Below are positions 472-14,035 of a stretch of 26,647 nucleotides of DNA, in pieces (position 1 is the first letter of the stretch; each line of letters opens with the position of its first letter). The notes below the pieces were generated by a model. That model had not been told where the DNA came from, searched no databases, and saw only the letters and a list, made by a program, of their open reading frames with translations. Made by a program: the position numbers and the translations under genes. The DNA comes from Opitutales bacterium (GTDB taxonomy: Bacteria; Verrucomicrobiota; Verrucomicrobiia; Opitutales; Coraliomargaritaceae): the NCBI GenBank assembly GCA_049598495.1, contig JBMYNR010000023.1, positions 1 through 26,647 on the forward strand, written 5' to 3'.

Positions 472-786
472 ATGATCGAACTTGTGAAAAAGACTATGTT
501 GGCCAGCGTAGGATTGGCTGTCGTGACGAAAGACAAGGTGCTGGAGTCGCTCGATGAATTGGTGGAGAAGGGCAATCTGACTAAAGAGGAGGCTGCCAGG
601 ATGTCGGAGAAGATTGTCGAAGAAGGAAAGGTTGAGACGGAAAAGGCAAAAACCGAAGCCAGTAGGCTCTTTAACGAGATGTTGCACCGGGCAAATTTAG
701 TGACGAGGGATCAATACGACGAACTCGCTGCCCGTGTGACTGAACTGGAGGGGAAGCTGCATAAGGAATTTCCGAATGAGGACTAG
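472..786 (+). CDS. Phasin-like coiled-coil protein (COG3937-like)
   Basis: 'GLAVVTKDKV...DELVEKGNLTKEEA...LVTRDQYDELAARVTELE' matches the small phasin-like family usually found upstream of AarF/UbiB kinases. Confidence 0.8.
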   Translation: MIELVKKTMLASVGLAVVTKDKVLESLDELVEKGNLTKEEAARMSEKIVEEGKVETEKAKTEASRLFNEMLHRANLVTRDQYDELAARVTELEGKLHKEFPNED

Positions 787-787
787 T

Positions 788-812
788 GTTGTTCGTTGAA
801 CGTTGATGGTTG
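788..812 (+). repeat. Left heptamer-periodic array (GTTGNNN)x3+GTTG
   Basis: GTTG at 788, 795, 802 and 809. Confidence 0.85.
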
Positions 813-816
813 CCCG

Positions 817-1194
817 ATGGCTCGGATAGACAGCTTCGAAGAGCTCGACTGCTGGAAGGCGTGCCGTGAATTGAGGCAGTTCATCAACGAAAAGGTGTTA
901 CCCCAATTGCCATCGGAAGAACGTTATAGGTTGGTTGATCAGCTGATTCGAGCTTCTCGTTCAGCAACAGCAAATATTGCTGAAGGGTTTGGCCGGCGCC
1001 ATTTTCTTGATAACGCGAAATTTATTCGGAATAGCCTTGGGTCGCAGCACGAGTGTTTGGATCACCTAATTACAGCTGTCGTCGAAGGTTTGATCTCGGA
1101 TGTTTTACTCGAGGAATTTAGACCTGTGTTTCAAAGATCTCTGGCGCTCAGCAATGGTTATGCTGCCTACTTAGCAAAAGCCGCTAAGCAGTGA
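817..1194 (+). CDS. Four helix bundle protein (23S rRNA intervening-sequence protein family, bAvd-like fold)
   Basis: Motifs 'FEELDCWK', 'EERYRLVDQLIRASRSATANIAEGFGR' and 'F..S.GS..E'. ATG 817 is preferred over TTG 796, which lies inside the repeat array. Confidence 0.9.
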   Translation: MARIDSFEELDCWKACRELRQFINEKVLPQLPSEERYRLVDQLIRASRSATANIAEGFGRRHFLDNAKFIRNSLGSQHECLDHLITAVVEGLISDVLLEEFRPVFQRSLALSNGYAAYLAKAAKQ

Positions 1195-1201
1195 CTTCTT
1201 A

Positions 1202-1231
1202 CAACCATCAACAAACAACTCTCAACTCAAC
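1202..1231 (+). repeat. Right heptamer-periodic array (CAACNNN), inverted relative to 788-812
   Basis: CAAC at 1202, 1209, 1216 and 1223 (plus 1228). 1202-1212 is the exact reverse complement of 802-812. Confidence 0.85.
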
Positions 1232-1234
1232 CCC

Positions 1235-2881
1235 ATGAAACCCTTTAATTATCTCGCCAATGCCCTACGTGCTCCGGAGATCGTGGCGATTCTTGTGCGC
1301 TGGGGTTTCGAGGACTTGTTGCTGCAGTTGGATACACCGCATTTTCTTTTGCGGAATTTGGTAAGAAAAAAGGTGGCGCATCTGACTCCTTATGAGCGGA
1401 TTCGTAACGCCTGTGAAGAGCTTGGGCCGATCTTCGTTAAGTTCGGACAGATCCTTAGCACGCGGCCTGATCGCCTGCCGGAGCCGCTCGTTATGGAGCT
1501 TAAGAAGTTGCGCAATGATGTGGAGCGGCAACCTTTTGAGAAAATTAAATCCGTCGCCCTTGAGGCCCTCGACTGCGAGTTGGAAGACGTTTTCTCAAGC
1601 TTCAATCCCGAGCCGATTGCCGCCGGATCACTTGGTCAGGTATACCGGGCGAAGTTGTTGAAGGGCGGAGAGGAAGTCGCAGTTAAGATCCAGCGCTCGG
1701 AAATCCAAAAAACGATTTCCTCGGATATGGAGATCATTGGCTGGTTTGCTCGGCAGCTTCACGCCCGGATTGAAGAGCTGCGTCCGTATCAATTGCCCTC
1801 GCTCGTCAAGGAGGCGGAGAAACGACTGGAGGAGGAACTCGATTACCGTAATGAAGCAGACAACGCGGAGATTTTTCTGGCTCTCAATACGGAGCATCCG
1901 AATGTCTTTGCGCCAACGGTCTTCCGTGAATACACCTCGCGTCGCTTGCTGGTCACTGAGTGGATCGACGGTGTGTCTCCCGATCAGATCACGCTCGATC
2001 CAGGGGAGGCTCAAAGGATTGCGCGAATGGGCGGTGAGTCCATTTTTCACCAAATCGTTGGTACGGGGTTTTTCCATTCCGATCCGCATTCCGGTAATAT
2101 GTTGATTACGGACGATCACCGAATTTGTTTCATTGACTGGGGCCAGGCTGGCCAGATTTCCCTCCAGATGCGCTATCACTTAGCGGATTTGTTTGTCGCG
2201 ATCACTGACCGTAATGCAGAAAAAGTCATTCACGTTGCTGAGTTGATGTCTTCTAACAACCGACGTATTGACCGCCGTCGCCTTGAAAAGGAGATCACCT
2301 ATCTCTTGAATAAACATCGCAAGTTTGGCCCATCGGGGACGAAGTTGGGAACCGTCGGCCTGGAGTTGCTCTACTTGTTCGGCATAAATGGGATTGAAGT
2401 ATCGTCCGACTATGCGCTCCTCACGAAGTCGATTTTATGTGTTGAGGAGACCGCGCGTGTCTTGGATCCCGGTTTTGACATTCAAGAAGTGGCGCGGCCC
2501 TATCTGATGAAGCTAAATTCGGAACGCTGGAGTTTAGAGGGTATCCAGCGCCAGCTGCTCTTTCCTTTGGTCAATATGATGCGGAGCCTGCAAAGAATCC
2601 CGGAGAATGCGCAACGGATTTTGCAACGGGTTGAAGAAGAGGAGCTTCAAATCAATTTTCACCACACCGGCACGGAGAAATTACAGGAGACCTTTAATGC
2701 GTCCATGAATCGGCTCACTGTCGGCATTATTCTAGGTTCGCTTTTGGTTGGTTCGTCTCTCGTGATTACAACGGGCGTGAAGCCGCTTCTCTTTGGCTAT
2801 CCGGTTCTTGGAATCATCGGTTTTCTTGCCTCCGGCTTGCTGGGTATGTACATCGTGGTTTCAACAATTCGGAAGCATTGA
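1235..2881 (+). CDS. ubiB: AarF/ABC1/UbiB family atypical kinase
   Basis: KFGQILSTRPD (KxGQ), AAGSLGQVY, VAVKIQ, EELDY, HSDPHSGN, IDWG, and two C-terminal hydrophobic helices. The family call is firm; a role in ubiquinone synthesis is not. Confidence 0.9.
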   Translation: MKPFNYLANALRAPEIVAILVRWGFEDLLLQLDTPHFLLRNLVRKKVAHLTPYERIRNACEELGPIFVKFGQILSTRPDRLPEPLVMELKKLRNDVERQPFEKIKSVALEALDCELEDVFSSFNPEPIAAGSLGQVYRAKLLKGGEEVAVKIQRSEIQKTISSDMEIIGWFARQLHARIEELRPYQLPSLVKEAEKRLEEELDYRNEADNAEIFLALNTEHPNVFAPTVFREYTSRRLLVTEWIDGVSPDQITLDPGEAQRIARMGGESIFHQIVGTGFFHSDPHSGNMLITDDHRICFIDWGQAGQISLQMRYHLADLFVAITDRNAEKVIHVAELMSSNNRRIDRRRLEKEITYLLNKHRKFGPSGTKLGTVGLELLYLFGINGIEVSSDYALLTKSILCVEETARVLDPGFDIQEVARPYLMKLNSERWSLEGIQRQLLFPLVNMMRSLQRIPENAQRILQRVEEEELQINFHHTGTEKLQETFNASMNRLTVGIILGSLLVGSSLVITTGVKPLLFGYPVLGIIGFLASGLLGMYIVVSTIRKH

Positions 2882-10879: not shown

Positions 10880-10900
10880 TGGTAGGCCGTCGGGGACTCG
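10880..10900 (-). repeat. Duplicate of the tRNA-Lys 3' end, ending in CCA
   Basis: 10882-10900 is identical to 11045-11063 (19 bp). The minus strand reads CGAGTCCCCGACGGCCTA-CCA. Confidence 0.9.
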
Positions 10901-11045: not shown

Positions 11046-11118
<73 letters not shown>

Positions 11119-12781: not shown

Positions 12782-14035
12782 ATGAAGATTGTACTCGCAT
12801 ACTCTGGAGGACTCGACACCTCCGTCCTCGTTAGTTGGCTTAAGGAGCACTATTCCGCCGAGATTATTACTTTTGCTGCGGATGTCGGTCAGGAAGAGGA
12901 ACTCGATGGTTTGGCTGAGAAAGCCAAGGCGACCGGGGCCTCGGCGCACTACACAGTCGATCTGGTTGACGAGTTTGCCCGTGATTTCATCTATCCGATC
13001 ATTCGGGCCAATGCGATCTACGAAGGCCAGTATTTTCTGGGCACCTCGATCGCGCGTCCATTGATCGGTAAGGCGCATGTAGAAATCGCCGAGCGCGAAG
13101 GAGCGGATGCCGTCGCACACGGTGCCACAGGGAAGGGGAATGATCAGGTCCGCTTTGAGCTCGCCTATGCGGCCCTTGCTCCGAAACTGCAGATCATCTC
13201 TCCATGGCGAATGGATGTCTTTCGTCAGGCTTTTCCGGGACGCTCGGAAATGATCGATTACTGCCGGGCCCATCACATCGATGTCGAAGCGAGTGCTTCG
13301 AAGCCCTACTCGATGGACCGCAACCTACTGCACATTTCCTACGAAGCCGGCATCCTTGAGGACCCCTGGTTTGACCCGACAACAGCGGATAACAAGGGAA
13401 TGTATAAGCTCACAACGGATCCGCAGGACGCGCCTGATGAGCCGGAATATCTCGAGCTCGATTTTGAGCGCGGCGACTGTGTTGCGGTCAATGGTGTGGC
13501 GATGACACCTGCGCAAGTGATGAAGTGCCTCAATAAACTAGCTGGTAAGCACGGCGTTGGCCGTGTGGATATTATTGAAAATCGCTTTGTCGGCATGAAG
13601 AGTCGTGGTGTCTACGAGACTCCGGGTGGAACGATCCTGATGCACGCGCACCGGAACATGGAAACGCTCACCATGGATCGAGAGCTTTCCCATCTACGGG
13701 ACAGCTTGATTCCGCGTTACGCACAGCTTGTTTACAACGGCTTTTGGTATGCCCCGGAGCGGGAAGCTCTGCAGGCGTTTATTGACGATTCTCAAAAGAC
13801 CGTCACCGGAACGGTTCGGCTCAAGCTTTACAAGGGTAACATTACGACAGTTGGGCGGAAGTCGCCTCTTTCTCTTTACGATGAAGACATCGCTTCGATG
13901 GAGGGCGTCGAGAGTGATTACAATCCCGATGATGCAACTGGCTTCATCCGTTTGAATGCGCTTCGCCTCCGCCGCCGTGCAATCGCTCAGGGTGGCCCCG
14001 AAATCGCCTCGGAGAGTAAGCTTTCCAAGGAGTAA
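12782..14035 (+). CDS. argG: Argininosuccinate synthase
   Basis: [49 protein letters not shown]. Confidence 0.98.

What the first reader, a model, noticed from the sequence alone, without database searches (positions are those of the whole stretch)
787..1234. Four-helix-bundle gene boxed by inverted 7-bp-periodic GTTG/CAAC arrays: candidate minimal mobile or RNA-processing cassette
Seen: the gene (817-1194) fills the gap between the phasin-like stop (786) and the ubiB ATG (1235). The left flank has GTTG at 788/795/802/809 and the right flank has CAAC at 1202/1209/1216/1223. 788-812 can pair with 1202-1226 as an 11-bp perfect helix plus two 4-bp helices separated by 3x3 internal loops. This would loop out the whole ORF and bring the upstream stop close to the downstream start. 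Established: this family was first found inside excised 23S rRNA intervening sequences and shares a fold with Avd, the nucleic-acid-binding accessory protein of diversity-generating retroelements; its function is unknown. Inference: gene plus arrays form a self-contained unit inserted into an operon with no transposase in cis. The periodic tetramers could be binding sites for the oligomeric protein, or a stem for mRNA-level processing or bypass.
Basis: partly seen in the sequence, partly recalled or inferred. Interest (0 to 1): 0.8.

Follow-up and report, generated by a model that had tools for sequence, protein, structure and literature searches.

The report
Site-swapping hairpin-armed four-helix gene cassette
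A small conserved gene framed by mirror-image 7-base repeats fills an operon gap that in related bacteria is empty, holds its decayed remains, or holds a different cassette; it likely spreads sideways into that same gap despite having no recognisable cutting enzyme, and its protein probably binds its own repeat arms.

Summary
GTTG x4 (788-812) and CAAC x4 (1202-1226) are the window's only such arrays (0 expected) and are predicted to pair around a TIGR02436/PF05635 gene with the Xcc0516/Avd fold.

Gene plus arms act as one unit. Of 64 orthologous junctions in the family, 14 are empty or nearly so, 17 hold this cassette or its relics, 12 hold an unrelated paralogue with other arms, and 3 hold gene-less arms like those of GxxExxY nuclease cassettes. 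The states are interleaved on the host tree.

The ORF is under purifying selection (dN/dS mostly 0.03-0.10). In several genome pairs it is far more alike than its flanking genes (silent divergence 0.01 vs 0.21; across genera 0.30 vs 0.73), which suggests lateral spread into the same site. The window's own copy looks old. The GTT(A/G) core follows the protein clade across phyla.

Binding, RNA processing and the driver of spread are unshown: no G-U strand bias, and no RNA joint in thin data. The closest known element is the ORF-bearing 23S rRNA intervening sequence. My searches found no paper on the operon form. This scan has noted the class before on other DNA (21 findings).

The parts
472..786 (+). 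upstream host gene, phasin-like (104 aa); not part of the cassette
   Evidence: TIGR01837 and NF047773 below cut-off; matches at E<=1e-15 in 81 of 101 family genomes
788..812 (+). left arm: 4 GTTG cores at period 7, starting 1 nt after the upstream stop and ending 4 nt before the cassette ATG, so it covers the ORF's initiation region
817..1194 (+). four-helix-bundle gene (125 aa), TIGR02436/PF05635, cassette lineage 'A'
   Evidence: AlphaFold pLDDT 96; Xcc0516 2GSC TM 0.86, BT_0352 2RLD up to 0.74, Avd 4DWL 0.76; dN/dS among orthologues mostly 0.03-0.10
1202..1226 (+). right arm: 4 CAAC cores at period 7, inverted to the left arm, ending 8 nt before the kinase ATG (extra CAAC at 1228-1231)
1235..2881 (+). 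downstream host gene, ABC1/UbiB-family atypical kinase (548 aa); not part of the cassette
   Evidence: PF03109 220 bits; below the TIGR01982 cut-off

Best explanation
The 787-1234 stretch is a gene-plus-arms cassette that is present, absent, decayed or replaced by a different cassette at this operon junction in relatives; it is likely a selfish element that spreads sideways into its own cognate junction by homologous recombination, and its predicted pentameric protein probably binds its own repeat arms. Steps: (1) shown - the unit is gained, lost and swapped at this junction, and the close relatives found are all at this site. (2) Shown as a pattern, cause inferred - in several genome pairs the cassette is much younger than its flanks, with divergence rising outward over roughly 100-400 bp, as expected from co-conversion during homing-like spread or from a sweep. 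(3) Inferred - each protein clade recognises a short core word (here GTTG/CAAC) repeated about four times per arm, close to the five subunits of the Xcc0516/Avd pentamer. (4) Inferred - on the operon mRNA the arms would close a stem that hides the ORF's own start and leaves the upstream stop about 9 nt from the downstream start, so that binding would autorepress the gene and keep the insert cheap for the host. What drives the spread (a helper nuclease in trans, the protein itself, or host benefit) is not determined.
For: Junction survey of 64 phasin-kinase junctions: 14 empty or <=25 bp, 12 type A, 5 A relics, 10 type B (protein about 33% identical to A, period-8 GAAGGT/ACCTTC arms), 2 B relics, 3 gene-less period-9 hairpins, 18 other. 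At least 20 changes of A/B/none on a 63-tip UbiB tree; the window's sister tip carries B. A and B sit on kinase alleles about 97% identical (G109a vs G107). Silent divergence, cassette vs kinase: 0.01 vs 0.21 (G091/G088), 0.00 vs 0.12 (G107/G109b), 0.20 vs 0.58 (G115/G109a), 0.30 vs 0.73 across genera (G115/G091). The same trough appears at 3 other cassette sites of G088/G091: 8/915 vs 134/2400 mismatches, Fisher p 2e-11. Most more distant pairs show no trough, so the ORF is not simply slow-evolving. All 16 database hits at >=68% identity lie at this junction. A type B gene with B arms also sits at a second site, behind argG. GTT(A/G)/(T/C)AAC lattices at period 7 or 8 lie on both sides in 49 of 75 scored homologue loci (74 GTDB plus the window) and 47 of 73 metagenome homologues, against 5 of 78 other family paralogues and 0 of 10 B-like loci; period-7 lattices were in 0 of 62 control windows. 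The arm word tracks the protein clade on a 113-protein tree. Modal core number is 4 per arm. Median upstream stop to arm is 6-7.5 nt and arm to downstream ATG 8-11 nt. Spacers are complementary beyond the cores: cognate 0.62 vs non-cognate 0.49, 23 of 27 loci. Avd binds an 11-bp RNA stem with all five protomers through flipped-out bases (bioRxiv 10.1101/2023.10.23.563531).
Against: No binding or expression experiment exists here. The window's own copy shows no recent transfer (silent sites saturated against all 10 intact orthologues), and its spacers pair no better than non-cognate ones (0.50 vs 0.47). G023/G122 show plain vertical descent (0.11 = 0.11). The cassette tree does not reject host-genus grouping. 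There is no sense-strand G-U excess (13 G-U vs 14 A-C), and the sense duplex was stronger in only 31 of 75 loci, so RNA-level pairing is not favoured over DNA-level pairing or arm-to-arm copying. The protein is net neutral (17 K+R, 17 D+E, pI 6.8), unlike the positively charged Avd barrel, and is only 4% identical to Avd. Word-clade association can arise from co-inheritance alone, GTT cores also occur in some other clades, and host G+C confounds the spacer test. Most genomes are draft multi-contig assemblies, likely largely from metagenomes, so chimeric assembly could mimic some swaps (G109 holds both alleles, 4% contamination). A divergence trough also follows a sweep for host benefit.
Confidence: 0.55

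Rival explanations
1. mRNA intervening sequence: host RNase III cuts the closing stem and drops the ORF out of the operon message, as for the ORF-bearing 23S rRNA IVS; the arms are processing signals rather than protein sites.
For: The Coxiella IVS has this architecture, a 28-bp stem, heptameric repeats upstream of the ORF and an RNase III cut at the first repeat (PMC4990558 passages). The host encodes RNase III. 10 of 29 A/B-filled junctions have a 7-13 nt inverted copy of the phasin's last codons right after its stop, against 0 of 35 others; this could cap an upstream cleavage product.
Against: The stem here has only 11 continuous bp (19 in all), short for RNase III by general knowledge. One RNA-library contig (695-1014) reads uncut across the left arm and no joints were seen (contigs only, depth about 3, DNA not excluded). 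No G-U bias. The stop hairpin is absent in the window's own copy. This rival does not explain purifying selection on the ORF or its spread.
Confidence: 0.17
2. Non-autonomous DNA or retro element: the arms are DNA ends (cruciform or terminal-repeat-like) mobilised in trans by the GxxExxY PD-(D/E)XK nucleases of sister cassettes, or by a reverse transcriptase with the protein as an Avd-like cofactor.
For: The genome has 13 GxxExxY matches, many framed by period-9 CGCGAA/TTCGCG-type arms, and gene-less arms of that type occupy this junction in 3 relatives. No strand bias in the arms. A group II intron-like RT is in the genome. Family genomes with an RT more often carry PF05635 genes (26 of 29 vs 17 of 37).
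Against: No target-site duplication was seen at the boundaries. No RT was found in 8 of 24 genomes with >=4 copies, including G088 and G091, which share near-identical cassettes. Only 2 weak hits (38-40%) in viral contigs.
Confidence: 0.13
3. Domesticated regulator: the protein binds the arms to tune coupling of many operons for the host's benefit, and the divergence troughs are ordinary selective sweeps.
For: Strong purifying selection. Position at operon junctions. Copies persist to silent-site saturation.
Against: Frequent loss and decay (7 relics, 1 frameshifted A and 3 damaged B among 29 A/B junctions). Unrelated cassettes replace one another at one site. 23 of 66 family genomes show no copy at E<=1e-10. 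No common function of the host operons is evident.
Confidence: 0.12
4. The arms are slippage-made simple repeats with no function, around an ordinary conserved gene.
For: Unit number varies by whole 7-mers between close relatives.
Against: Inversion, fixed orientation (reverse orientation on both sides in 1 of 74 and 2 of 73 loci), clade-specific words and arm complementarity are not expected from slippage.
Confidence: 0.03

Closest known systems
ORF-bearing intervening sequences (IVS) of 23S rRNA (Coxiella burnetii helix 45, Leptospira; S23p ORF; PMC4990558)
   Same: Same protein family (PF05635); about 430-450 nt; ORF enclosed by terminal inverted repeats; heptameric repeats before the start codon; sporadic distribution
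   Different: Sits between protein-coding genes, not in rRNA. The ORF is under purifying selection, whereas the Coxiella ORF is reported as decaying. The stem is interrupted (11+4+4 bp) rather than 28 bp. Excision is not shown.
Avd of diversity-generating retroelements (PDB 4DWL, 8UB7; bioRxiv 10.1101/2023.10.23.563531)
   Same: Same four-helix fold (TM 0.76, rmsd 1.7 A); its pentamer binds an 11-bp RNA stem through repeated protomer crevices
   Different: 4% identity; no RT, template repeat or variable gene in cis; net neutral charge
Xcc0516 (PDB 2GSC) and BT_0352 (2RLD), S23-family proteins of unknown function
   Same: Closest structures (TM 0.86 and up to 0.74); five chains per entry; Xcc0516 is reported as a homopentamer
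   Different: No function known; their flanks were not examined here
Free-standing homing endonuclease genes, and homing introns or inteins (recalled)
   Same: Site fidelity; invasion, decay and loss; cassette younger than its flanks, with a co-conversion-like gradient
   Different: No nuclease domain or recognisable active site; no splicing machinery; filled alleles replace other filled alleles
MITEs and REP/RAYT elements (recalled)
   Same: Short inverted ends, intergenic position, gene-less derivatives
   Different: Carries its own conserved gene; arm word specific to the protein clade; site-faithful rather than dispersed; no target-site duplication seen

Membership tests
TIGR02436 / PF05635 four-helix-bundle family | profile score above the curated cut-off | tested here: met
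   62.3 vs 24 bits; 75.9 vs 33.8 bits
TIGR02436 / PF05635 four-helix-bundle family | four-helix fold like Xcc0516 | tested here: met
   pLDDT 96.4, TM 0.86, rmsd 1.0 A
TIGR02436 / PF05635 four-helix-bundle family | homopentamer | not testable with these tools
   the complex tool takes at most 4 copies; no job was sent
23S rRNA intervening sequence | located inside an rRNA gene | tested here: not met
   flanks are protein genes; Rfam finds only one tRNA in the window
23S rRNA intervening sequence | terminal inverted repeats closing a stem around the ORF | tested here: met
   (predicted fold)
23S rRNA intervening sequence | excised from the RNA by RNase III without ligation | tested here: inconclusive
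   RNase III gene present; thin RNA contigs show read-through of the left arm and no joint
Diversity-generating retroelement | RT, template repeat and variable gene beside the Avd-like gene | tested here: not met
   the only RT match is on another contig and looks group II intron-like
Homing endonuclease element | encodes a site-specific nuclease | tested here: not met
   no nuclease family or fold match
Homing endonuclease element | empty and filled alleles of one site, with the element younger than its flanks | tested here: met
Insertion sequence / MITE | transposase in cis and target-site duplication | tested here: not met
   none at the boundaries of filled vs empty sites, read by eye

The most novel reading that the evidence does not exclude
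A nuclease-free homing element. The pentamer clamps the periodic arms so that the two host flanks are rejoined into a copy of the empty site, and this RNA- or single-stranded-DNA-protein complex drives gene conversion of empty or rival alleles. Each protein clade and its repeat word would form an orthogonal lock-and-key pair, and Avd of DGRs and the rRNA IVS would be offshoots of this element class.
Probability: 0.17. Interest if true: 0.92.

Novelty: new variant of a known kind. Interest (0 to 1): 0.7.

Why it matters
PF05635/TIGR02436 is a widespread orphan family with solved structures and no function, and how ORF-bearing rRNA intervening sequences spread is an old open question. This locus supplies a candidate ligand (the clade-specific repeat core), natural empty, filled and rival alleles of one site, and a measurable signature of lateral spread without a recognisable nuclease, transposase or RT. 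Binding and invasion can therefore be tested directly with a 450-bp cassette from a marine bacterium. If confirmed, it is among the smallest self-propagating gene cassettes known and offers orthogonal protein-repeat pairs.

Tried and rejected
RNA evidence. Five RNA runs held 5-17% of the words, and four were laid. They were contigs only, at depth 2-5, with no joints and no end pile-ups. One contig spans 695-1014. In another run two contigs stop at 764 and begin at 1244, outside the cassette; at this depth that is not evidence of excision.

Strand tests. Sense vs antisense duplex energy and G-U vs A-C counts gave no preference.

Structure. Single-sequence AlphaFold was poor (pLDDT 51) and was replaced by the alignment-based model. 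No complex prediction was sent, because a pentamer cannot be modelled.

Stem geometry. The MFE-based stem-base distances were uninformative because flanks paired non-specifically; core-to-gene distances were used instead.

RT in trans as an obligatory helper is not supported. Phage carriage gave 2 weak hits only.

Fold-back hairpin. The inverted copy of the upstream gene's end is specific to this junction: 5 of 118 at other sites, against 1.7% non-cognate and 2.4% of 1092 genome stops. It is rejected as a general insertion scar.

Promoters and terminators. No promoter-like or terminator-like site lies in the cassette. Rfam has no family for it.

Tree test. The test of host-genus monophyly on the cassette tree neither showed nor rejected it.

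Dropped rows: 21 of 85 junction loci (1 without the phasin-like gene, 20 without an adjacent kinase start); 6 of 80 GTDB and 7 of 80 metagenome homologues (contig ends or odd lengths); 2 of 80 family loci (no profile hit); 1 short kinase left out of the tree.

Literature. Nine searches found no paper describing arm-bounded PF05635 cassettes in operons. Subscription journals are not covered and no supplements were read.

Full report
Observation. Four GTTG cores at period 7 (788-812) follow the upstream stop by 1 nt, a 125-codon ORF runs from 817 to 1194, and four CAAC cores (1202-1226) end 8 nt before the next ATG. The pattern occurs twice in the window, against 0 in 100 shuffles, and this is the only inverted four-core pair in the 1.75-Mb genome. 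Folding predicts the 11+4+4 bp stem with all 19 pairs at probability 0.96 or more. The ORF passes TIGR02436 and PF05635. An alignment-based model (pLDDT 96) matches Xcc0516 (TM 0.86), BT_0352 and Avd (TM 0.76, 4% identity). The neighbours are a phasin-like gene and an ABC1/UbiB-family kinase, both below their equivalog cut-offs. Named records that hold the orthologous locus are mostly titled Opitutales, Opitutaceae or Puniceicoccaceae, so the host is probably an Opitutales verrucomicrobium.

The junction in relatives. I took 85 loci from family genomes; 64 had the two genes adjacent. Fourteen are empty or hold 25 bp or less, six of them with overlapping stop and start. Twelve hold the orthologous cassette (type A; one frameshifted) and five hold its deleted or gene-less relics (one assigned by eye). 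Ten hold a different PF05635 gene (type B, about 33% identical, three damaged) with period-8 GAAGGT/ACCTTC arms, and two hold B relics. Three hold gene-less period-9 hairpins, and 18 hold other spacers. The period-9 arms resemble those around GxxExxY nuclease genes in the window's own genome (13 matches). On a 63-tip kinase tree (quick method) the states need at least 20 changes for A/B/none; the window's sister carries B, and A and B occur on kinase alleles about 97% identical. No target-site duplication was visible.

Selection and spread. Type A ORFs have dN/dS mostly 0.03-0.10 where silent sites are not saturated; the one exception, G091/G088, has almost no silent change. In several pairs the cassette is much younger than its flanks. 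Silent divergence of cassette vs kinase is 0.01 vs 0.21 (G091/G088), 0.00 vs 0.12 (type B, G107/G109b), 0.20 vs 0.58, and 0.30 vs 0.73 between two genera. G088/G091 show the same trough at three other cassette sites (8 of 915 vs 134 of 2400 mismatches), in one case as a clean V (10,7,7,4,3,2,0,0,0,3,4,5,6,8 per 100 bp). Of the 18 pairs, most of the more distant ones have ORFs as divergent as or more divergent than their flanks, so the trough is not intrinsic constraint. Against this: G023/G122 are vertical (0.11 = 0.11), the window's copy is saturated against all orthologues, the cassette tree is too weak to reject host grouping, kin are not independent, and assembly chimeras cannot be excluded. 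All 16 hits at 68% identity or more (8 GTDB, 8 metagenome, partly overlapping) lie at this same junction, so lineage A is site-faithful. Lineage B also occurs at a second site, behind argG, so new sites are occasionally reached.

The arms. Among the 80 best GTDB homologues (44-78% identity, several phyla), 49 of 75 scored loci (74 plus the window) have GTT(A/G) and (T/C)AAC lattices at period 7 or 8 on the correct sides. The metagenome set gives 47 of 73, with reversed orientation on both sides in 2. Other paralogues of the host family rarely use this word (5 of 78) but mostly have their own inverted periodic word (57 of 78, vs 12% of mismatched arm pairs; 80 of about 170 matches were fetched). 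The word follows the protein clade on a 113-protein tree. All 9 PF05635 matches in the own genome show some such arms by eye. The core stays while period and spacers change, which points to recognition of the core, though co-inheritance alone could contribute. Spacers are also more complementary within a cassette than between cassettes (0.62 vs 0.49, 23 of 27), so the arms are kept mutually paired or are copied from each other. The window's own spacers are no better than non-cognate ones, and G-U and A-C oppositions are equal (13 vs 14), giving no sign that pairing happens on the sense RNA. Arms abut the host genes (medians 6-7.5 nt from the upstream stop, 8-11 nt to the downstream ATG) and usually have four cores. 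Short gaps are expected of operons anyway.

RNA data were thin. One metatranscriptome contig reads uncut from the phasin-like gene through the left arm into the ORF, and no joined form was found.

Mechanism. The best-supported reading (0.55) is a selfish, site-faithful cassette that spreads by homologous recombination with flank co-conversion, whose pentameric protein binds its own arms. The closed stem would mask the ORF's start and bring the host stop and start together, making the insert cheap for the host. The unit and its turnover are shown (about 0.9), lateral spread is well supported (about 0.75), and cognate binding is inferred (about 0.6). RNA vs DNA level and the driver are open. The analogy rests on Avd, whose five protomers grip an 11-bp stem through flipped-out bases (10.1101/2023.10.23.563531; passages and section 8 read); this protein, however, is net neutral. 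Rivals are RNase III excision as an mRNA IVS (0.17), mobilisation in trans by GxxExxY nucleases or an RT (0.13; no RT found in 8 of 24 copy-rich genomes), a domesticated regulator (0.12) and neutral repeats (0.03).

Known relatives and novelty. The Coxiella 23S IVS has the same gene family, terminal inverted repeats, heptameric repeats and an RNase III cut (PMC4990558; 12 passages read). The Avd-PF05635 likeness is in print (PMC10053308; one passage). PF05635 ORFs are scattered over rRNA insertion sites in CPR bacteria (10.1101/2024.02.27.582315; two passages). The element fails membership as an rRNA IVS, DGR, homing endonuclease or IS, but is built like the first and spreads like the third. 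Nine literature searches found no description of the operon form; subscription journals and supplements were not seen. The comparison with homing endonucleases and MITEs, and the RNase III stem-length rule, are recalled. Earlier notes of this scan describe the same class elsewhere; they are unchecked and not counted as support. What was tested here is the competition of three cassette types for one site, the repeated divergence trough, and the word-to-clade match. Verdict: real; a new variant of a known kind; interest 0.70.

Noticed in passing
phasin stop in L011, L029, L032, L133, L142, L148, L159 and others: 10 of 29 cassette-filled junctions (7 of 12 type B) carry a 7-13 nt inverted copy of the host gene's last codons just after its stop, matching each host's own variant; 0 of 35 other junctions do. 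It is absent in the window and rare at other sites. It may be a fold-back scar or an RNA cap.
   Followed up: partly
G000 C2, C6, C7, C11, C12, C46 (L193-L202): 13 GxxExxY (PF13366) nuclease matches, 6 intact, mostly framed by periodic inverted arms (often period 9) between co-oriented genes: a sister cassette class and a possible helper.
   Followed up: partly
L181 (G068:C84): A type B cassette behind argG, whose left arm overlaps the argG stop; the window's argG (12782-14035) has no such gene after it.
   Followed up: partly
L142, L148: Type B cassettes of 729-739 bp with expanded arms interspersed with small GCGGAGC/GCTTCGC palindromes.
   Followed up: no
L147: The kinase gene appears to start with CTG (also in L177), shared with the cassette junction although the two kinases differ by about 17%.
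   Followed up: no
L048-L119: In many homologues the right arm begins inside the ORF and the TAAC core supplies the stop codon; at period 7 or 8, successive cores give TAA stops in all three frames.
   Followed up: no
window:129-377: Truncated RHS/YD-repeat fragment at the contig start (PF05593, E 0.003, below cut-off).
   Followed up: partly
window:2979-3088: 110-bp REP-like palindrome (GTAGGG...CCCTAC arms, 30 nt) after the kinase gene; the REP/RAYT label is recalled.
   Followed up: no
window:10560-11118: GIY-YIG fragment next to a tRNA (11046-11118, minus strand), with a 19-nt direct repeat of the tRNA's 3' end at 10882-10900: possibly a small integrated islet.
   Followed up: no
L192 (G000:C3:6882-7514): Group II intron-like reverse transcriptase (452-aa frame), the only RT match in the genome.
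   Followed up: partly
L130, L137, L139, L144, L149, L151, L153: In small genomes of the same genus the phasin-like gene is not followed by the kinase; it is followed by decayed period-9-like repeats and apparently a convergent gene.
   Followed up: no
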